DNA of 64,000 nucleotides. Origin: a virus. The notes beneath the pieces were generated by a model. That model did not search any database, was not told the DNA's origin, and saw only the letters and a list, made by a program, of their open reading frames with translations. Numbering within the stretch: position 1 is the stretch's first letter; each line of letters opens with the position of its first letter. Positions 51,324-59,139 of the stretch are shown in pieces. The stretch lies in the IMG/VR virus record IMGVR_UViG_3300020202_000892, positions 1,667 through 65,666 of that record. One strand, written 5' to 3'. Both the position numbers and the translations under genes were made by a program.

Positions 51324-51628
51324 CCGAGCTGTCGCCCACCCAGGTCGCGCTGCGCGAGCTCACGATGCTCACGAAGTGCTATTGCGACGGAGAGCATCCG
51401 CGGCTGGGGCACAACTGCAGCTTCCGGCCCGACGTCCTGACGCTGGTGACCAACATCGGCAACGTGCTCAAGCTCTGCGATGAGCGCAGCGGGCTGTGGG
51501 ACGACGGTCGCATCCCGGCCGAGGACGTCCGGCGCACGCTGCTGGGGCTGTCCACAGGAGACGGCGGCGCAACCGATGACCCGCCGTGGAGTAACGAGGA
51601 GGGGGAGGGGCCTTCCATGCCGGGATAG
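51320..51628 (+). CDS. Hypothetical protein
   Basis: ATGA overlap; CYC...HNC motif. Confidence 0.6.
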   Translation: MTELSPTQVALRELTMLTKCYCDGEHPRLGHNCSFRPDVLTLVTNIGNVLKLCDERSGLWDDGRIPAEDVRRTLLGLSTGDGGATDDPPWSNEEGEGPSMPG

Positions 51629-51776
51629 GCTCACCGACACCTCACGCCGCGACGCTCCCCAACGTCCCGCGGCGGGGGTGCTGCCGACCTCCAGACGTGA
51701 GACGGCCGGATCCGGGTGCTGGCAACACCTGGTCGGATCCGGCCGTCGACGCCTCAGCAGAAAGCGCAGGTACAGC

Positions 51777-54700
51777 ATGTCATACCCCGACCCGTCGCAC
51801 GACGAGGTCCCGCAACACGTCACTCCGTTCAGCCCTCTGGCTTCGGAGAAGTTCCGCCGCTCCGGTCTGGACGAGGACTTCGTTCGGTCCATGGGAGTGC
51901 GCCCGGTCCTGACCCCCGACGACCTCCCCGAGGGGATCCGGGGGGAGAACTACGCGCCCGTGCCGGGGGTGCTGTTCCCGTGGTCGGACGGCCCCGACTC
52001 GGAGAAGGTCTGGCAGTACCGACCCGACAAGCCGGTGGAGGAGGGGCTCAAGTACGTCTTCCCCAAGGGCCGCCACCAGCCGTTCGGACTGGTTCGCCCG
52101 GCCAGCCGGTACCCGCAGCGCATCGCGATCGTCGAGGGCACGTTGCAGAGCCTGGTCATGGCGCGCTACGCGCCGGATGACGTGGCGGTCTACGCCATCC
52201 CCGGCTGCTGGGGTTGGTCACACGAGGAGAAGCCGGCATCGGGCCTGGGCGTGGTCGACGGGTCGGACGTGTACGTCTTCCTGGACGCGGATGCCGGCAC
52301 GAAGATCGACGTCTACACCGCGGGGGCCGAGCTGGAGAAGGCGTTGCGCGCACGCGGCGCGGCGGATGTCTGGTTCGCCCGGCTGCCGGTGCGCGGGTCC
52401 AACGGGGTCGACGACTTCCTCGGCTCGGTGGAACCGGAGGGGCGGGCGAAGGCGGTCGGCGCGCTGCTGGAAGGTGCGAAGCACAAGCCGGCCGACGCGA
52501 AGCCGAAGGGCAAGACGCGTCGGGGGAACGACCTGTTCCCGACCAACGACACCATCCTCGCCACCACCTGGGCCGACCAGAACCGCGACGTGTTCCGGTG
52601 GCTGGCCGACGACGAGGGGTGGATGCGGTTCCGGTTGGGTCGGTGGGAGGAGACCGGGCCGAGCGTGGTCGGCTCCTCGGTGGGCGTGTTCCTGGCCGGA
52701 GTCGCCGAGGCCTACCAGGCCGAGGGTGATGACGACGAGGTCAAGACGTTGCTCTCGCAGAGCAAGCTCGCCGCGGTGCGCGCACGGGCCAGCGCCTACG
52801 ACGCGATCCACGTGCAGCGCGCCCAGCTCGACCGGCACCCGCGGCTGTGGAACGCAGGTAACGGGGTGATCGACCTCGAGTCCGGCGGGTTCTTCGAGCA
52901 CGACCCGAACCTGATGATGACCACCGGTTCGGATGTGCCCTACCTGCCGGACGCGGCGTGCCCACGGTTCGACGAGTTCTTCGCCGACATCCTCCCCGAC
53001 GAGGAGGTGCGCGCGTTCCTGCTGCGGCTGTTCGGCGTGGCGATGTTCGGCGAGGTGCGCGGGGACGCGCAGATCTTCCCGGTGCTCATCGGCGAGGGAC
53101 GCAACGGCAAGGGCGCGCTCGTGCGGATCATGGAGAAGCTGTTCGGTCGGCACGCGGTGAAGGTGTCAGCCTCGGCGCTGCTGGAGCGCAAGTTCGAGGC
53201 GCACTCCCAGGAGGTGATCAAGCTCCGCGGGAAGCGCCTGGCGACGGCCGAGGAGACCTCGCAGAACGCCCGCTGGGACACCGCGCGGATCAAGAGCTGG
53301 ACCGGCGGGGACACGCTGGTCGGCCGGTTCATGATGCAGAACGACGAGGAGTTCGTCCCGTCGCACACCCTGCTGATGTCGACCAACCACCGGCCGAACG
53401 TGTCGATGGACGAGTCGGCGTTCTGGATGCGCTACCGGGAGGTCCCCTTCACCGTCTCCGTCGAGGGGCGCGAGGACCCCACGCTCGAGCCGCACATCAT
53501 CGGCCAGGAGCTGCCCGGGGTGCTCAACCGCCTGTTGGCTGGCGTCCGGGACTACCTGGATCGCGGGCTCGCGGCACCGGCCGCGGTGGTGGTGGCCACC
53601 GAGGAGGCCCGCGCCGAGACCAACCGCCTGGCGATCTTCGCCGAGGAGATGCTGGTCGTCACGAACGACGAGAACGACCGCGTCCTGCACGCCGACATGC
53701 GCGACCGCGCCGAGAAGTGGTGGTCACAGCACGTGAGGAACGAGCCGTTCCCGTCGGACCGCGGACGGGGCAAGTTCGTCCCGCTGCTGCGCTCCGCGCT
53801 CGGTCTCGTCGAGGGCGTCGTGGGCAACCCGCGGCCCATCGGGAAGGGCAGCGGGCAGCGCACCACGTGGGTCGGGGTGCGGTGGCTCGGGGACGGCGGA
53901 GGGGGCTCCAGGGGGTCTGCCCCATTGCTTCCGCTCAATAGGGCAGACCTGGCCCCGGCGGCCCCTGCACCGGCCGAAGGTCACGAGAAGGTCACGGAGG
54001 CGCCGGAGGGGGGTCTGCCCCATTCCGACGGGGGGTCTGCCCTAAAGTCTGCCCCATCAAATGATCTTGACGATGACAACATCGCAGGTCAAGAGGTGGT
54101 TTCTGAACGGTCTGCCCCATCTGCCCCAAGAAAGGTCCTTGTCTCGCATATAGGAAGAGATGAAGAGGGGTACTTGAACGGTTCAGAAGGTGATGTGTGT
54201 GTCGTAGGGGCGAGTACAGATAGGGCAATAGGGCAGACGGCCCCCCATGGGGCAGCCCCGGCGGCGCTCGGCGACCCCGTCGTCTTCGACCTGGAGACCG
54301 CCGACGCCGAGCACCTGTACGACCACCCGGACCCCCGCGGGTTCGTCAGGATCGCCGGTCGGACCACCCCTGACGGAGTGGTCGTCGACGCCGGTCCGGA
54401 CGCCGTCATCGAGGCGGTGCTCTCGTCACGCCGCGTGATCGGGCACAACGTCGTGCACTTCGACCTGCCCGCGCTGGCTCGAGTCGACGGGAGGGTCGAC
54501 GTGCTCACGATGACGCGCGATCGCCGCGTGCTCGACACCATGATCACCGAGTCGGTGCTGCACCCGATCCTGAACGACAAGTCGGCGGGCGCGGTCGCGA
54601 AGGCCGCGAAGTGGTTCAAGCTCGACGCGGTGTGCGAGCGTCGTGGCATCGGCGGGAAGGTCGACGAGATCGCTCGGCTGGCGAAGCTGCACGGCGGGTT

Positions 54701-56066
54701 CGATCAGATCCCGGTCGACGACCCGGACTACCGGACCTACGTCGCGGGGGACGTCGGAGCCGCCCGGATGCTCGCCGCCCTGCAGGCCTCCGAGATTGCC
54801 GCGCTTCCGCAGGCGCAGCAGGACTACCTCTGGCGCGAGCACCGTGTGCACGCGATCGCGGCGACCATGGGAGCGCAGGGCTTCCTCGTGGATCAGGAGC
54901 TGCTGCAGCGTCGGTTCTGGACCGGCTACAACCGCAAGAACGACCTGAGCCGCGCGCTGATCGCCCGCTACGGCATCCCGACCGTGAAGGCCGACGGCAA
55001 GCGCGCGGAGTCCCCAGCGGCCACCAAGGGCGGCAAGGAGGCCATCCTGGCCGCGTTCGCCTCGCTCGGGGTGGACGTCGACACGATGGAGCGCACGCCC
55101 AAGGGCGCGATCGCGTTCGGCAAGGTGCCGATGGAGAATCTCGCCGAGGCCTACGCCGAGCACGCATGCGCCGAGGAGATCACCGCGCTGGCCGAGCTGG
55201 TGGCCGACGTGAACGGGGTGCGCACCGTCTACGGCACGGCTCTGGAGGCGCTGCGGGCCGACGGCCGGGTGCACCCGGAGGTGGCGACCCTGCAGGCGTC
55301 CGGCCGGTGGTCGGTGCGCAAGCCGGGGCTGACCGTGTTCGGGAAGCGCAACGGGCGCCATGTTGAGCGTGCGGTCTTCCGGGCCGCGGAGGGCAACGCG
55401 CTGTTCGCGATCGACCTGTCCCAGATCGACGCGCGGGCGATCGCGGTGCACTCCCAAGATCACGACTACCTGGACCTGTTCCTGCCCGGCCGCGACGCGC
55501 ACGAGATCGTGGCCCGGATGGTGTGGGGTGACGCGGTCTACGACTCCGACCGCAAGCGCTACCGGCAGGAGATCAAGGCGATCACCCACGGGCTCCCGTA
55601 CGGCATGGGGGTGCCGAAGCTGGCCGCGCACGCGAAGGTGTCCGAGGAGCTCGCACGCCGGGTGGTCGACACGATGAACGAGCGCTTCCCCCGGCTGCAG
55701 GCTTGGAAGGACGAGGTCCGCGAGGAGGTGCGCGCCGGCAAGCCGCTGGACAACGGGTTCGGCCGGGTCATGCTCGCCGACCCGGATCGGGCTTACACCC
55801 AGGCGCCCGCGCTGATGGGCCAGGGCACCGCTCGAGACCTGATGATGGAGGCGTTGCTGCGGCTGCCCGACTTCGCCGTGCGGATGCTGCGCGCCCAGGT
55901 GCACGACGAGGCCGTGTTCGAGGTCCCGCTCGTGCTGGCCGACCAGATCGTCCCGAGGATCGAGCAGGCGTTCAACTTCGAGTGGGCGCCCCCCGGCGCC
56001 TCGCGTCCGGTGCAGATCGTGGCGGAGGCGGGCAAGCTGGGGGTCTCGTGGGCCGAGTGCTACTAG
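51777..56066 (+). CDS. Primase (Toprim)-SF3/D5 helicase-family A DNA polymerase fusion
   Basis: Toprim IVEG...LDAD; Walker A GEGRNGKG; exonuclease VFDLET, GHNVVHFD; Pol motifs DLSQIDAR, RQEIKAITHGLPYG, QVHDE in one ORF. Confidence 0.92.
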   Translation: MSYPDPSHDEVPQHVTPFSPLASEKFRRSGLDEDFVRSMGVRPVLTPDDLPEGIRGENYAPVPGVLFPWSDGPDSEKVWQYRPDKPVEEGLKYVFPKGRHQPFGLVRPASRYPQRIAIVEGTLQSLVMARYAPDDVAVYAIPGCWGWSHEEKPASGLGVVDGSDVYVFLDADAGTKIDVYTAGAELEKALRARGAADVWFARLPVRGSNGVDDFLGSVEPEGRAKAVGALLEGAKHKPADAKPKGKTRRGNDLFPTNDTILATTWADQNRDVFRWLADDEGWMRFRLGRWEETGPSVVGSSVGVFLAGVAEAYQAEGDDDEVKTLLSQSKLAAVRARASAYDAIHVQRAQLDRHPRLWNAGNGVIDLESGGFFEHDPNLMMTTGSDVPYLPDAACPRFDEFFADILPDEEVRAFLLRLFGVAMFGEVRGDAQIFPVLIGEGRNGKGALVRIMEKLFGRHAVKVSASALLERKFEAHSQEVIKLRGKRLATAEETSQNARWDTARIKSWTGGDTLVGRFMMQNDEEFVPSHTLLMSTNHRPNVSMDESAFWMRYREVPFTVSVEGREDPTLEPHIIGQELPGVLNRLLAGVRDYLDRGLAAPAAVVVATEEARAETNRLAIFAEEMLVVTNDENDRVLHADMRDRAEKWWSQHVRNEPFPSDRGRGKFVPLLRSALGLVEGVVGNPRPIGKGSGQRTTWVGVRWLGDGGGGSRGSAPLLPLNRADLAPAAPAPAEGHEKVTEAPEGGLPHSDGGSALKSAPSNDLDDDNIAGQEVVSERSAPSAPRKVLVSHIGRDEEGYLNGSEGDVCVVGASTDRAIGQTAPHGAAPAALGDPVVFDLETADAEHLYDHPDPRGFVRIAGRTTPDGVVVDAGPDAVIEAVLSSRRVIGHNVVHFDLPALARVDGRVDVLTMTRDRRVLDTMITESVLHPILNDKSAGAVAKAAKWFKLDAVCERRGIGGKVDEIARLAKLHGGFDQIPVDDPDYRTYVAGDVGAARMLAALQASEIAALPQAQQDYLWREHRVHAIAATMGAQGFLVDQELLQRRFWTGYNRKNDLSRALIARYGIPTVKADGKRAESPAATKGGKEAILAAFASLGVDVDTMERTPKGAIAFGKVPMENLAEAYAEHACAEEITALAELVADVNGVRTVYGTALEALRADGRVHPEVATLQASGRWSVRKPGLTVFGKRNGRHVERAVFRAAEGNALFAIDLSQIDARAIAVHSQDHDYLDLFLPGRDAHEIVARMVWGDAVYDSDRKRYRQEIKAITHGLPYGMGVPKLAAHAKVSEELARRVVDTMNERFPRLQAWKDEVREEVRAGKPLDNGFGRVMLADPDRAYTQAPALMGQGTARDLMMEALLRLPDFAVRMLRAQVHDEAVFEVPLVLADQIVPRIEQAFNFEWAPPGASRPVQIVAEAGKLGVSWAECY
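53914..54255. repeat. Iteron-like repeat cluster (TCTGCCCYA core), putative replication origin
   Basis: About 9 direct and inverted copies in a visibly AT-richer segment of the helicase-polymerase linker. Confidence 0.65.
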
Positions 56067-56518: not shown

Positions 56519-56589
56519 GCCCCGCTGGTGTAGCGGTAGCACGCCTGCCCCTCAAGCAGGTGGCACGGGTTCAACTCCCGTGCGGGGTA
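56519..56589 (+). tRNA. tRNA-Glu (CTC)
   Basis: Acceptor GCCCCGC/GCGGGGT, D GTGT..GCAC, anticodon arm CCTGC-CCCTCAA-GCAGG, T arm ACGGG-TTCAACT-CCCGT; CCA not encoded. Confidence 0.88.
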
Positions 56590-56742
56590 CGAGGATGGGC
56601 CGGAGGAGCTCGGTTAACTGTTAATCCATGTGTCGCTGGTTCGAGTCCAGTCGGTGCTCCGTAGCCATTCGGACGCGCTGTAGCTCAGTTGGTAGAGCAA
56701 TGGCCCGCAAGGGTATCCGGATCCGCAACACGCCCGACCCCT
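56590..56742 (+). ncRNA. Y-RNA-like unit 1 with circularly permuted tRNA module (Asn-GTT-like loop)
   Basis: Closing stem GGATGGGC/GCCCGACC; T arm, loop-closed acceptor stem, then D arm GCTCAGTTGGTAGAGC. Confidence 0.7.
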
Positions 56743-56859
56743 ATAACTGGATATCGAAGGACGGGCCGATCGCCATCGGTTATCCGCTGCCAGGGCTTCG
56801 GCCCATTGTTCTGGGGTTCTAGCGGGCCCCGCCCGGTGGTGCAGCGCCACGCCCGTCCT
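56743..56859 (+). ncRNA. Y-RNA-like unit 2
   Basis: Stem AGGACGGGC/GCCCGTCCT; shared ATAAC..ATATCGAAG leader and TCGGTT; GGGC-TTCG-GCCC hairpin. Confidence 0.6.
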
Positions 56860-56860
56860 C

Positions 56861-56965
56861 CAACTACATAACGAACGGGCCGGATGTCATCGGTTCTCGG
56901 CTGGAAGGCCCGAAAGGGCTTGCCGTTTCGATCACGGCGCCCGGTGTCAGCAACACGCCCGTTCG
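56861..56965 (+). ncRNA. Y-RNA-like unit 3 (contains a T arm)
   Basis: Stem CGAACGGGC/GCCCGTTCG; T arm GCCGT-TTCGATC-ACGGC; GCCC-GAAA-GGGC hairpin. Confidence 0.62.
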
Positions 56966-56967
56966 CC

Positions 56968-57120
56968 ATAACTCGATATCGAAGGACGGGCCGGAGGGTA
57001 GTTCGGTTACCCCTTGAGGAGGGCGTAGTTCGGGTTCGAATCCCGGTCCCCGACCCAACGTGTCGGGGATGGTGTAACGGCAGCACGCGCAAACCCCGGA
57101 CCCCACAACACGCCCGTCCT
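56968..57120 (+). ncRNA. Y-RNA-like unit 4 with circularly permuted tRNA module
   Basis: Stem AGGACGGGC/GCCCGTCCT; T loop TTCGAAT; acceptor TCCCCGAC-CCAACGT-GTCGGGGA; D arm TGGTGTAACGGCAGCAC. Confidence 0.72.
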
Positions 57121-57124
57121 GTTC

Positions 57125-57200
57125 GCCTCGCTGGTCCAACGGATCACGACGCATCCCTACGGAGGATGAGATCCGGGTTCAACTCCTGGGCGGGGCACCA
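57125..57200 (+). tRNA. tRNA-Arg (ACG)
   Basis: Acceptor GCCTCGC/GCGGGGC, anticodon arm CATCC-CTACGGA-GGATG, T arm CCGGG-TTCAACT-CCTGG, encoded ACCA. Confidence 0.9.
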
Positions 57201-57269
57201 GGCCCCTGGGGGTGCGCCGGTGATGCCGAGCGTTACGCACTCGCCCGGCAGGTAGCCGCCCCAGGGGCC
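57201..57269 (+). ncRNA. Unassigned structured RNA element
   Basis: 11-bp stem GGCCCCTGGGG/CCCCAGGGGCC enclosing GTGCG/CGCAC. Confidence 0.4.
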
Positions 57270-57274
57270 TGCTG

Positions 57275-57401
57275 ATAACTCGATAATGAAGAGTGGGCCG
57301 GAGACGGTCGGTTATCCTCACTCGAAATGAGGGTCGCCCGGTTCGATTCCGGGGTCGCCTGGTTGGCAGTCCTTTTCCGGCAGTCACAACACGCCCATTC
57401 T
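57275..57401 (+). ncRNA. Y-RNA-like unit 5 (anticodon arm CGA plus T arm, no D arm)
   Basis: Stem AGAGTGGGC/GCCCATTCT; CCTCA-CTCGAAA-TGAGG; CCCGG-TTCGATT-CCGGG. Confidence 0.68.
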
Positions 57402-57405
57402 GCTT

Positions 57406-57484
57406 ACAACCGAATATCGAAGACGGGCCGGATGCGATCGGTTCTCCTCTAACAGATCCCCGGTCGCAACTAACACGCCCGTCT
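57406..57484 (+). ncRNA. Y-RNA-like unit 6 (minimal)
   Basis: Stem AGACGGGC/GCCCGTCT; ATATCGAAG, CCGGA..TCGGTT and AACAC motifs retained. Confidence 0.58.
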
Positions 57485-57510: not shown

Positions 57511-59139
57511 ATGTCGAACGACCCGCTCACGCTCGTCTCCACGCGGCGCACGCCGCAGAGCGAGCCGGACCCCGCGGTCGCCGACCGGCAGAAGCGCAAC
57601 GCCGCCGGTGGGTACGCGTTCAAGGCCTCCGACGAGGTCAGCATCCACCGCTTCCTGACGCTCGGCACGACCGGTGGCACGTACTACACCGGCGAGGCGG
57701 ACCTCACCAAGGCCAACGCGGAGGTGGTCCTCGCGGCCGCCCGTGAGCGTGGCGAGTGGCTGGTCGAGCGCGTGGTCGAGGTGTCGGTCGCCGGTCGGGC
57801 CCCGAAGCAGAACCCCGGGATCTTCGCGCTCGCCGCGGTCGCCGGGGTGGGCGACGAGCCCGCCCGCAAGGCCGCGCTGGCCGCGCTCGGGCGGGTCTGC
57901 CGTACCGGCACGACGCTCTTCCTGTTCGCCCGCTACGTGGAGCAGTTCCGCGGGTGGGGGCGCGGGTTGCGGCGTGCGGTCGGCGCCTGGTACCTCGACC
58001 GCCCGGTCGACGACGTGGCCTACCAGGCCGTGAAGTACCGCCAGCGCGAGGGCTGGAGCCACCGCGATCTGCTGCGGCTGGCGCACCCGGAGCCGGATGC
58101 GGACGACGAGGCTCGGCGCGCGCTCTTCCGGTGGATCGTGGACGGCGAGCTGCGCGACGAAGCGCCGGTACTCGTGCACGCGTTCCACGAGGCGCAGACC
58201 GCCGACCGCGAGTCACTGGTCTCGCTCGTGGCCGACCACGCACTGAGCTGGGAGATGCTGCCGGACGCGTCCCGTACCCCCGAGGTGTGGCGCGCGCTGC
58301 TCATCAAGGGGATGCCGCTGGGTGCGTTGCTCCGGCAGCTTCCGACGCTGACCCGCCTCGGCGTGCTCGACGACACGGACATGCAGCTGACCGTTCGCCA
58401 GCAGCTCAGCGACCCGAAGAAGCTGCACAAGGCCCGGGTGCACCCGGTCAACGTGCTGGTGGCACAGAAGACCTACGCGTCCGGGCGCAGCATGCGGGGC
58501 GACTCGACCTGGACCCCGAAGCGCAAGATCATCGACGCCCTCGACGCCGCGTTCTACGCCGCGTACGGCGCGGTGGAGCCCGCGAACAAGCGGACGCTGA
58601 TCGCTCTGGATGTGTCCGGGTCGATGGGGTCGCCAGTGTCCGGGATGCCGCTGAGCGTCCGGGAGGCGGCTGCGGCGATCTCGTTGGTCACCCTGGCCAC
58701 CGAGCCCGCGTGCGACATCGTCGGGTTCACTGGTGGGGGGCTCTGGCGGCGAGCCAGTGCGTCGGTCGGTGAGGCGATCAGTGAGCTGACGATCTCGCCC
58801 CGGCAGCGGCTGGACGACGTGGTCCGCTACACGTCCAACCTGCCGTTCGGCTCGACCGACTGCGCGCTTCCGATGATCTGGGCCGAGCGGAACGGCCGGG
58901 ACTACGACACCATCATCGTGATCACGGATAACGAGACGTGGGCGGGCAACACCCATCCCCACCAGGCGTTGGAGGCCTACCGGCGCAAGGTCGGGCACGA
59001 CGTCCGGCAGATCGTGATCGGGATGACCGCCAACGACGTGTCGATCGCCGACCCGAACGACCCGCTCACGCTGGACGTTGCCGGCTTCGACTCGGCCGTG
59101 CCGAACCTCGTTGCCGACTTCTCCCGCGGGACGGTCTGA
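57511..59139 (+). CDS. rsr: Ro60/Rsr (TROVE plus vWA) RNA-binding protein
   Basis: NAAGGYAF...RFLTLGTTGGTYY N-terminus; MIDAS ALDVSGSM; TDCALPM; IVITDNETW; LDVAGFDS. Confidence 0.95.
   Translation: MSNDPLTLVSTRRTPQSEPDPAVADRQKRNAAGGYAFKASDEVSIHRFLTLGTTGGTYYTGEADLTKANAEVVLAAARERGEWLVERVVEVSVAGRAPKQNPGIFALAAVAGVGDEPARKAALAALGRVCRTGTTLFLFARYVEQFRGWGRGLRRAVGAWYLDRPVDDVAYQAVKYRQREGWSHRDLLRLAHPEPDADDEARRALFRWIVDGELRDEAPVLVHAFHEAQTADRESLVSLVADHALSWEMLPDASRTPEVWRALLIKGMPLGALLRQLPTLTRLGVLDDTDMQLTVRQQLSDPKKLHKARVHPVNVLVAQKTYASGRSMRGDSTWTPKRKIIDALDAAFYAAYGAVEPANKRTLIALDVSGSMGSPVSGMPLSVREAAAAISLVTLATEPACDIVGFTGGGLWRRASASVGEAISELTISPRQRLDDVVRYTSNLPFGSTDCALPMIWAERNGRDYDTIIVITDNETWAGNTHPHQALEAYRRKVGHDVRQIVIGMTANDVSIADPNDPLTLDVAGFDSAVPNLVADFSRGTV

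What the first reader, a model, noticed from the sequence alone, without database searches (positions are those of the whole stretch)
56590..57120. Circularly permuted tRNA modules, one with CCA inside the joining loop
Seen, unit 1: CTGTTAA loop, CCAT, T arm (56635-56651), acceptor 3' strand CGGTGC, loop, acceptor 5' strand GCGCTG, D arm (56683-56698), then ATGG pairing back with CCAT. Seen, unit 4: T arm (57030-57046), TCCCCGAC, loop CCAACGT, GTCGGGGA, D arm, then CGC pairing with an upstream GCG. The 3' half therefore precedes the 5' half, and unit 4 encodes discriminator plus CCA exactly where a mature 3' end would fall. Known: YrlA effector domains are permuted tRNA mimics, and true permuted tRNA genes exist in some algae and archaea. 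Inference: these are either uncleaved mimics or precursors that could be cut in the acceptor loop and possibly ligated.
Basis: partly seen in the sequence, partly recalled or inferred. Interest (0 to 1): 0.78.

Follow-up and report, generated by a model that had tools for sequence, protein, structure and literature searches.

The report
Phage Y RNAs with permuted tRNA domains
Upstream of a soil phage's Ro60 (rsr) gene lie six small Y-RNA genes, two of which carry a back-to-front tRNA look-alike. This is the published YrlA design, but one copy also encodes the tRNA end sequence CCA where the enzyme RNase P is predicted to cut it.

Summary
Units 1 and 4 each have T arm, closed acceptor hairpin and D arm in that order. 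A covariance model built only from other loci finds exactly these two in the 64 kb (E 3e-14 and 3e-8).

They are YrlA-type Y RNAs. Six Y-RNA modules and two real tRNAs lie directly upstream of a phage rsr (Ro60) gene. The permuted-tRNA topology is published, as are RNase P cleavage in the acceptor loop and CCA addition for M. smegmatis YrlA (Chen 2014; Wang 2018).

Two points may be new:
- Unit 4's genome-encoded discriminator plus CCA after a 7-bp stem recurs in register. It is found in Mycobacterium phages Myrna, Phabba and ScoobyDoobyDoo, Microbacterium phage Magritte, Rhodococcus phage Trina, several uncultured phages and two actinobacterial MAGs. It persists despite compensatory stem changes, which points to a cleavable subclass.
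- Unit 1, once de-permuted, is called tRNA-Asn(GUU), anticodon loop included.

Cleavage is inferred, not shown. Ligation has no support.

This scan has noted YrlA-type permuted tRNA mimics before on other DNA (119 notes, at least 111 genomes). Verdict: a known kind with a minor new variant; moderate interest.

The parts
56519..56590 (+). genuine tRNA-Glu(CUC); no encoded CCA
   Evidence: ARAGORN; Rfam tRNA 61.3 bits
56597..56736 (+). Unit 1: YrlA-type Y RNA. Basal stem GGGC/GCCC with a GCCGGAG Ro-binding-type motif. Permuted tRNA-Asn-like domain at 56617-56703.
   Evidence: Rfam YrlA 35.7 bits; model R1 51.1 bits, E 2.8e-14; the de-permuted sequence is called tRNA-Asn(gtt) by ARAGORN at default settings; best BLAST hits are tRNA-Asn junctions
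56618..56624 (+). Unit 1: CTGTTAA, identical to a tRNA-Asn anticodon loop (C32 U33 GUU A37 A38)
56635..56651 (+). Unit 1 T arm (5 bp, loop TTCGAGT)
56652..56680 (+). Unit 1 closed acceptor hairpin: 6 bp (two G-U) continued by a TCCG/CGGA extension; no CCA
56683..56698 (+). Unit 1 D arm (GCTC/GAGC; A14, G15, G18 G19, A21)
56760..56858 (+). Unit 2: Y-RNA module without a tRNA-like domain (Ro-type stem, UUCG hairpin)
   Evidence: repeat families D1-D4; reading
56875..56962 (+). Unit 3: Y-RNA module without a tRNA-like domain (Ro-type stem, GAAA hairpin)
56985..57118 (+). Unit 4: YrlA-type Y RNA with a permuted tRNA-like domain and encoded C73-CCA
   Evidence: model R1 31.8 bits, E 2.6e-8; homologues in cultured actinophages
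57030..57046 (+). Unit 4 T arm (loop TTCGAAT)
57047..57053 (+). Unit 4 acceptor 3' strand (7 nt), pairs with 57063-57069
57054..57057 (+). Unit 4 discriminator C73 plus encoded CCA (positions 73-76)
   Evidence: same register in relatives
57058..57062 (+). Unit 4 linker ACGTG. Predicted RNase P site is at its 3' end, before T57063, or before G57062 if the G-1:C73 pair forms.
   Evidence: inference from Chen 2014 and from established RNase P rules
57063..57069 (+). Unit 4 acceptor 5' strand
57072..57086 (+). Unit 4 D arm (GTGT/GCAC; A14, A15, G18 G19, A21). Positions 8-26 match the neighbouring tRNA-Glu at 16 of 18.
   Evidence: direct comparison with 56526-56543
57125..57200 (+). genuine tRNA-Arg(ACG) with encoded CCA
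57294..57397 (+). Unit 5: Y RNA with an anticodon-arm-like hairpin (57316-57332, loop CTCGAAA) and a T arm (57337-57353), but no D arm and no long acceptor hairpin
   Evidence: R1 local T-arm hit; ARAGORN calls 57291-57361 a tRNA only at relaxed threshold
57422..57483 (+). Unit 6: minimal Y RNA stem-loop
   Evidence: fold z-score -4.5; repeats
57511..59139 (+). rsr: Ro60 orthologue (TROVE + vWA_Ro60), 542 aa
   Evidence: Pfam E 1e-43 and 2.9e-57; 354 phage records hold a homologue

Best explanation
The stretch is the Y-RNA array of a soil actinophage's Ro60 (Rsr) system: six Y-RNA genes and two real tRNA genes, probably co-transcribed ahead of rsr. In each unit the 5' and 3' ends pair into a stem that carries the Ro60-binding-type motif. 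Units 1 and 4 are YrlA-type. Between the stem strands they carry a tRNA domain in circularly permuted order (variable loop, T arm, acceptor 3' strand, closing loop, acceptor 5' strand, D arm). This domain should fold into the tRNA L-shape. Unit 1 is most likely an uncleaved mimic, because its stem is 6 bp and is prolonged into a longer hairpin. It descends from a tRNA-Asn(GUU). Unit 4 has the geometry of an RNase P substrate: a 7-bp acceptor stem stacked directly on a 5-bp T stem, then C73-CCA. By analogy with M. smegmatis YrlA, host RNase P would cut in the loop just 5' of the acceptor 5' strand. Exonucleases would then trim the few extra bases back to the encoded CCA. The result would be a two-piece RNA, held together by the acceptor stem and the Ro-binding stem, with a genuine tRNA-like CCA 3' end and still bound to Rsr. 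Shown here: the sequence anatomy, family membership, the rsr context, and recurrence and conservation of the in-register CCA. Inferred: folding, Rsr binding, RNase P cleavage and trimming. My confidence that these are YrlA-type Y RNAs is about 0.9. My confidence that unit 4 is actually cleaved in vivo is about 0.55.
For: rsr is identified by Pfam, and the record is a 69.9-kb IMG/VR virus. Independent model R1 finds only units 1 and 4 in the window. It gives 97 hits in 83 phage rsr loci, all on the rsr strand. My structural descriptor gives 145 of 150 hits on the rsr strand, clustered just upstream of rsr. The 15:48 Levitt pair covaries: G-C 68, A-U 37, other 15 (Fisher 2e-22 on the G/A by C/U table). 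U8, A14 and A21 are more than 90% conserved. Unit 1 has G15-C48 and unit 4 has A15-U48. Chen 2014 shows RNase P cleavage, retention of both halves on Rsr and CCA completion for the 7-bp-stem M. smegmatis YrlA. CCA at positions 74-76 occurs in 5 of 52 eligible modules against about 1 expected. Within the unit-4-type family it is kept in Myrna, Phabba and ScoobyDoobyDoo while the stem changes compensatorily and the trailing loop varies. It is also present in Magritte (two of three modules), Trina and L068. Two soil metatranscriptomes each hold a 170-nt contig that covers unit 1 alone.
Against: There is no direct RNA-end data for unit 4, and the RNA contigs cover only unit 1. The closest relative by Rsr (L021, 65% identity) has a unit-4 homologue with an 8-bp stem and a TAT loop, without CCA. 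Half of the unit-4-type family and 15 further hairpin modules of that D-arm type also lack CCA, so the feature is dispensable. C73 can pair with G57062 to give a closed 8-bp hairpin with a 7-nt loop, which may disfavour or shift cleavage. Rfam's own YrlA threshold is not reached. CCA could be a relic of origin from tandem tRNA genes.
Confidence: 0.6

Rival explanations
1. Both units are uncleaved, closed-loop tRNA mimics, as S. Typhimurium YrlA is. Under this view the CCA in unit 4 is an evolutionary relic. A tandem duplication of a CCA-encoding tRNA gene, trimmed at both outer ends, automatically gives T arm, acceptor 3' strand, CCA, short spacer, acceptor 5' strand, D arm.
For: Most YrlA acceptor hairpins are closed by stable tetraloops (75 of 120 have 4-nt loops), and Wang 2018 considers most to be poor RNase P substrates. 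Unit 1 matches tandem or adjacent tRNA-Asn junctions in phage genomes, and ordinary tRNA genes map onto it as two swapped pieces. The CCA is missing in the nearest relative L021. Seven of nine CCA modules can close an eighth pair between N73 and N-1.
Against: A relic should decay. Instead CCA is invariant in three Myrna-group phages whose stems and trailing loops have diverged, and it recurs in register in phages of four host genera and in two MAGs. The M. smegmatis precedent shows that a 7-bp stem with a 4-nt loop is cut in vivo.
Confidence: 0.3
2. They are true permuted tRNA genes, as in Cyanidioschyzon merolae. The transcript would be circularised at the outer ends and opened at the acceptor loop to give a working tRNA, for example tRNA-Asn from unit 1.
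For: De-permuted unit 1 is called tRNA-Asn(gtt) by ARAGORN at default settings, with a 5-bp anticodon stem reconstituted across the junction. Wang 2018 raises the possibility in general terms.
Against: Unit 1 has only a 6-bp acceptor stem with two G-U pairs, a C-U mismatch at 1:72, no G73 and no CCA. Unit 4 has no anticodon arm at the junction, and ARAGORN needs a 46-nt 'intron' and finds an implausible loop. The phage has no RtcB ligase, and no bacterial splicing endonuclease is known. Every unit instead carries the Ro-binding stem and sits beside rsr.
Confidence: 0.04
3. The pattern is a chance resemblance, or decayed tandem tRNA pseudogenes with no function.
For: Dimeric tRNAs can score as YrlA false positives (Chen 2014 methods). 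MFE z-scores of the units are near zero.
Against: The acceptor strands are mutually complementary (6 and 8 bp). E-values from an independent model are 3e-14 and 3e-8. The same architecture is conserved upstream of rsr in more than 100 loci, with covarying tertiary pairs. A near-identical unit 1 is assembled in RNA libraries.
Confidence: 0.02

Closest known systems
Mycobacterium smegmatis YrlA (Chen et al. 2014, RNA 20:1715, PMC4201824)
   Same: A Y RNA encoded just upstream of an actinobacterial-type rsr. It has a permuted tRNA-like domain and a 7-bp acceptor stem closed by a short loop. It is cut by RNase P in the loop, both halves stay on Rsr, and the 5' half ends in CCA.
   Different: In M. 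smegmatis, CA is added after transcription. Related mycobacterial loci here encode only A73-C74 (loops ACAT and ACTA in L095 and L099). Unit 4 encodes the whole C73-CCA plus a 4-5-nt linker, has a Glu/Gln-type D arm, and is phage-borne in an array of six Y RNAs.
Salmonella Typhimurium YrlA (Rfam RF02553; structure in Wang et al. 2018, bioRxiv 10.1101/312249)
   Same: Order T arm, closed acceptor-like hairpin, D arm. tRNA tertiary contacts, including the Levitt pair. A 6-bp acceptor stem, not cleaved. This is the best match for unit 1.
   Different: Unit 1 scores only 35.7 bits against the Rfam model (gathering score 69). It lacks the middle stem of the Salmonella RNA, and it retains a complete tRNA-Asn anticodon-loop heptamer.
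Y-RNA-like RNAs of phage Ro60 systems (mycobacteriophages in Chen 2014; Thermus phage phiLo Yrl1/Yrl2, PMC12135203)
   Same: Several Y RNAs encoded directly upstream of a phage Ro60 gene.
   Different: The phiLo paper does not mention tRNA mimicry or CCA. Six units plus two tRNAs is a larger array than those described.
Two-piece tmRNA from circularly permuted ssrA genes (my own knowledge, not checked here)
   Same: A permuted gene in which the CCA-ending acceptor 3' strand precedes the acceptor 5' strand. Processing in the intervening segment gives a two-piece, base-paired, tRNA-like molecule. This is the closest analogue for how unit 4 would work.
   Different: tmRNA is aminoacylated and acts on ribosomes. 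No such activity is known for any Y RNA.
Permuted tRNA genes of Cyanidioschyzon merolae (Soma et al. 2007, cited)
   Same: The 3' half is upstream of the 5' half, and the acceptor region is initially a closed loop.
   Different: Those precursors are circularised by the splicing machinery and become working tRNAs. Here the outer ends form a Ro60-binding stem and no ligation machinery is evident.

Membership tests
YrlA-type Y RNA (Chen 2014 criteria; Rfam RF02553) | Encoded within about 4 kb of a Ro60/TROVE gene, on the same strand | tested here: met
   Units 1 and 4 end 775 and 393 nt upstream of rsr (57511-59139, + strand); Pfam TROVE + vWA_Ro60
YrlA-type Y RNA (Chen 2014 criteria; Rfam RF02553) | GNCGAAN0-1G Ro60-binding-type motif near the 5' end | tested here: met
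   All six units carry GCCGGAG or GCCGATC inside GGGCCGGA, one substitution from the motif. The homologue in ScoobyDoobyDoo has an exact GCCGAACG.
YrlA-type Y RNA (Chen 2014 criteria; Rfam RF02553) | T arm, closed acceptor-like stem-loop and D arm, in that order | tested here: met
   Reading; descriptor; independent model R1, E 2.8e-14 and 2.6e-8
YrlA-type Y RNA (Chen 2014 criteria; Rfam RF02553) | tRNA tertiary-contact nucleotides (U8, A14, G18 G19, T54-A58, covarying 15:48) | tested here: met
   Present in both units. Family-wide 15:48 covariation, Fisher 2e-22. Already reported by Chen 2014.
YrlA-type Y RNA (Chen 2014 criteria; Rfam RF02553) | Score at or above the Rfam gathering threshold (69 bits) | tested here: not met
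   Unit 1 scores 35.7 bits (E 2.4e-5 over 3.5 kb; 1.1e-7). Unit 4 is not reported at E up to 10. It is a divergent actinophage branch of the family, not a clean Rfam member.
YrlA-type Y RNA (Chen 2014 criteria; Rfam RF02553) | Binding to Rsr; psi55 and D modifications by TruB and DusA | not testable with these tools
   Needs immunoprecipitation and modification mapping
RNase P-processed YrlA (M. smegmatis type) | 7-bp acceptor stem stacked directly on a 5-bp T stem | tested here: met
   Unit 4: 57047-57053 pairs with 57063-57069, with no nucleotide between the T stem and the acceptor strand. Unit 1 fails this test (6 bp).
RNase P-processed YrlA (M. smegmatis type) | Cleavage at the acceptor 5' strand in vivo and in vitro, with a CCA-ended 5' half | not testable with these tools
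   The RNA-library contigs that matched cover unit 1 only
True permuted tRNA gene (C. merolae type) | De-permuted sequence is a complete tRNA with an anticodon arm | tested here: inconclusive
   Unit 1: yes, tRNA-Asn(gtt) by ARAGORN at default settings. Unit 4: no credible anticodon arm.
True permuted tRNA gene (C. merolae type) | Machinery and signals for circularisation (splicing endonuclease motif, RNA ligase) | tested here: not met
   No RtcB in the 69.9-kb phage record. The outer ends form a Ro-binding stem instead.

The most novel reading that the evidence does not exclude
A subclass of actinophage Y RNAs (the unit-4 type, with encoded N73-CCA) is matured by RNase P into two-piece RNAs with a real acceptor end. 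That end is then used rather than merely protective. It could be aminoacylated: unit 4 and Magritte module 3 carry the tRNA-His-like G-1:C73 eighth pair. Or the RNA could be offered as a decoy or sensor to host tRNA-targeting enzymes. The anticodon-loop-like heptamers with variable triplets found in many YrlA modules would fit the decoy idea.
Probability: 0.1. Interest if true: 0.8.

Novelty: new variant of a known kind. Interest (0 to 1): 0.38.

Why it matters
What Ro60 and Y RNAs do in phages is still open. One paper proposes hijacking of host PNPase (PMC12135203). One preprint finds that a phage Ro60-like protein counters a defence system (10.1101/2024.10.10.617714). A conserved subclass of phage Y RNAs that encode their own CCA at a predicted RNase P site would mean that some Y RNAs are built to expose a true tRNA 3' end. 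The subclass occurs in cultured, harmless phage-host pairs such as Myrna and ScoobyDoobyDoo on M. smegmatis, so cleavage, CCA dependence and possible charging can be tested directly. The tRNA-Asn ancestry of unit 1 also gives a concrete example of how such mimics could arise from tandem tRNA genes. The basic phenomenon, a permuted tRNA mimic with RNase P cleavage, is already published, so this is a refinement and not a discovery of a new kind.

Tried and rejected
- MFE folding of single units gave z-scores near 0 for units 1-5. It is not informative in 60-70% GC sequence, so I relied on comparative models instead.
- An exact-pattern search for near-identical unit-4 copies in IMG/VR found none. 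blastn of the array against cultured phages found only tRNA-Glu matches. No close relative of this phage is available.
- The pattern scan T loop ... TGGTGTA in IMG/VR returned mostly ordinary tandem-tRNA junctions. The 15 true hairpin modules among them lack CCA.
- RNA runs X13 and X14 hold only a unit-1-like contig and nothing on unit 4. These are contigs, so they give no ends, strand or level. DNA carry-over in these libraries cannot be excluded.
- No promoter-like site and no + strand terminator-like site was found between 55900 and 59400. This is compatible with co-transcription but is weak evidence.
- ARAGORN at relaxed thresholds calls unit 5 'tRNA-Ser(cga)' and part of unit 4 'tRNA-Gly(acc)' in standard order. 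I rejected both as genuine tRNAs because of poor acceptor pairing and the absence of a D arm.
- The supplementary tables of Chen 2014 (phage list, alignments) are not held. Two reviews are not held either. I therefore could not check whether the encoded CCA was already noticed there.
- No phage-encoded RtcB or CCA-adding enzyme was found.

Full report
WHAT IS THERE. The window is bases 1667-65666 of a 69.9-kb IMG/VR virus record from soil, with CheckV completeness 92%. ORF 57511-59139 (+) is a Ro60 orthologue, with TROVE at E 1e-43 and vWA_Ro60 at E 2.9e-57. Homologues occur in 354 cultured phage records, mostly phages of Mycobacterium, Streptomyces, Gordonia and Microbacterium, with a best identity of 58%. 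The 1 kb upstream of rsr holds the following:
- tRNA-Glu(CUC) at 56519-56590.
- Six repeated modules: U1 56597-56736, U2 56760-56858, U3 56875-56962, U4 56985-57118, U5 57294-57397 and U6 57422-57483.
- tRNA-Arg(ACG) at 57125-57200.
Each module begins with GGGCCGGA...TCGGTT and ends with AACACGCCC. The ends pair as GGGC/GCCC. The 5' motif is one substitution from the GNCGAAN0-1G Ro60-binding motif of Chen et al. 2014. These are therefore Y-RNA genes.

THE OBSERVATION.
- U1 reads: heptamer CTGTTAA, CCAT, 4-5-nt variable loop, T arm 56635-56651, acceptor 3' strand CGGTGC, 17-nt loop that extends the hairpin, acceptor 5' strand GCGCTG, TA, D arm 56683-56698, A, ATGG.
- U4 reads: GCG, TAGT, T arm 57030-57046, TCCCCGA, C, CCA, ACGT, G, TCGGGGA, TG, D arm 57072-57086, G, CGC.
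To test this against chance without circularity, I collected permuted modules from 160 other rsr loci: 80 IMG/VR and 80 Actinomycetota genomes. A structural descriptor gave 150 hits, 145 of them on the rsr strand and nearly all in the 700 nt before rsr. I aligned 32 of these, none from the window, and built covariance model R1. Run over both strands of the whole window with filters off, R1 finds U1 (51.1 bits, E 2.8e-14) and U4 (31.8 bits, E 2.6e-8). Nothing else scores better than E 0.03. In 83 phage loci all 97 hits lie on the rsr strand. Rfam's YrlA model hits U1 at 35.7 bits, below its gathering score of 69, and misses U4.

FOLD. Among 120 modules the Levitt pair covaries (G15-C48 68, A15-U48 37, other 15; Fisher 2e-22). 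U8, A14 and A21 are 91-96% conserved, and the descriptor did not constrain any of these positions. U1 has G15-C48 and U4 has A15-U48. Both have G18 G19 and a T54-A58 T loop. The sequences are related, so the p-value overstates independence. Chen 2014 had already reported this covariation.

WHAT IS ALREADY KNOWN. Chen et al. 2014 found YrlA-related RNAs near rsr in 254 bacteria and 22 phages. They showed that M. smegmatis YrlA, whose acceptor stem has 7 bp, is cut by RNase P RNA in vitro. In vivo it exists as an 82-nt and a 65-nt half, both bound to Rsr, and the 5' half carries a CCA tail completed by addition of CA. Wang et al. 2018 solved the Salmonella tRNA-like domain. This scan has also flagged YrlA-type permuted mimics 119 times in at least 111 genomes.

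WHAT MAY BE NEW (1): ENCODED CCA. Among 52 independent modules in which positions 74-76 lie in the loop of a 7-8-bp stem, CCA occupies 74-76 in five: L028, L039, L068, L093 and L096, all with A73. About one was expected from loop composition (p 0.019 per module). Five of the ten loops that contain CCA anywhere have it in this register.
BLAST with U4 then led to unannotated homologues in cultured phages:
- Mycobacterium phage ScoobyDoobyDoo: 7-bp stem, then ACCA, then ACAT.
- Microbacterium phage Magritte module 1: ACCA, then AGTAC.
- Rhodococcus phage Trina: GCCA, then ACTT.
Phabba and Myrna (87% and 84% identical to ScoobyDoobyDoo) keep ACCA. Meanwhile their stem changes compensatorily (GGCC/GGCC to GGGC/GCCC) and the trailing bases change.
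Magritte module 3 has a 7-bp stem, then C, CCA and G before the 5' strand, which is the same C73/G-1 arrangement as U4.
The feature is not universal. L021, the nearest relative by Rsr (65%), has a U4 homologue closed by TAT. Five of ten aligned U4-type modules and 15 further hairpin modules lack it. Related mycobacterial chromosomal YrlAs encode only A73-C74 (L095, L099), which fits the 'CA added' result of Chen 2014.
I read this as a recurrent, selectively maintained subclass in which the CCA end is genome-encoded. It would be exposed by RNase P plus 3' trimming. The phage has no CCA-adding enzyme or RtcB of its own.

WHAT MAY BE NEW (2): ANCESTRY OF U1.
- Ordinary tRNA genes in soil DNA runs map onto U1 as two swapped pieces: D arm 56681-56699, four bases, then 56617-56651.
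- The best BLAST matches are junctions of tRNA-Asn with the next tRNA, or tandem tRNA-Asn genes.
- Joining 56674-56703 to 56617-56658 gives a sequence that ARAGORN calls tRNA-Asn(gtt) at default settings.
So U1 is a permuted tRNA-Asn including its anticodon loop, broken between positions 30 and 31. This fits an origin by tandem duplication. Its 6-bp stem with two G-U pairs, its 1:72 mismatch and its lack of G73 and CCA argue against a working tRNA.

MECHANISM. The best-supported mechanism is as follows.
- The array is transcribed with the tRNAs and rsr. No promoter-like site and no + strand terminator-like site lie between them (weak evidence).
- Each unit folds on itself and binds Rsr through its basal stem.
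- U1 stays closed.
- U4 is nicked by RNase P before T57063, or before G57062 if the G-1:C73 pair directs cleavage one base upstream as in tRNA-His (established RNase P behaviour; inference here).
- The 5' half is then trimmed to CCA, and the halves stay paired.
Only the anatomy and its conservation are shown here. Expression evidence is limited to a 170-nt contig, 97.5% identical to 56592-56751 (U1 alone), in two soil metatranscriptomes from different studies. One of its differences, T56655C, turns a U-G pair into C-G.

VERDICT. This is a real feature and it was correctly read. It belongs to a known kind (YrlA-type Y RNAs of a phage Ro60 system), with a modest new variant (genome-encoded, in-register CCA) that is testable in cultured mycobacteriophages.

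Noticed in passing
window 56618-56624 (U1), 57321-57327 (U5); loci L001-L161, 17 to 11 nt before each T arm: Many YrlA modules carry an anticodon-arm-like hairpin, the 'V' stem-loop of Chen 2014, just before a 5-nt AGGUC-type variable loop. Its 7-nt loop has C32 (57%), U33 (71%), R37 (83%) and A38 (79%) around a hypervariable triplet. 44 of 120 modules meet all three criteria at this offset, against 0-11 at shifted offsets, and 20 different triplets occur. U5 has a perfect 5-bp stem with loop CTCGAAA. This bears on first-stage note e1-5326837.
   Followed up: partly
L164:936-1012 (Microbacterium phage Magritte, OR553905.1): The record's annotated tRNA-Arg(tct) overlaps a YrlA-type module (R1 hit 972-1044, 67 bits). 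Its 'anticodon arm' is the V hairpin. Its acceptor 3' strand can pair either with an upstream strand (standard order) or with the downstream strand (permuted). Some phage 'tRNA' annotations may therefore be Y RNAs.
   Followed up: partly
window 56592-56751: Two soil metatranscriptome runs from different studies each hold a 170-nt contig about 97.5% identical to unit 1 alone, with nothing on the flanks. This weakly hints that a close relative's unit 1 is an abundant stable RNA.
   Followed up: partly
window 57201-57272: A strong 72-nt hairpin (-45.9 kcal/mol, z -3.2) lies directly after the encoded CCA of tRNA-Arg and before unit 5. There is no U tract. It could be a processing element or a further small RNA.
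   Followed up: no
window 56743-56759, 56968-56984, 57275-57291, 57410-57421: A conserved spacer, ATAACTCGATATCGAAG, precedes units 2, 4, 5 and 6. It contains a second CGAA-type motif. It could be a processing signal, part of the Ro-binding region or a promoter element.
   Followed up: no
window 57070-57087 versus 56526-56543: Positions 8-26 of unit 4 (D arm) match the neighbouring genuine tRNA-Glu(CUC) at 16 of 18, which hints at the isotype from which its 5' half derives.
   Followed up: no
window 51480-56066: A single 1528-aa ORF combines D5_N/DUF5906 primase-helicase domains with a family A DNA polymerase. Another first-stage note already covers it.
   Followed up: no
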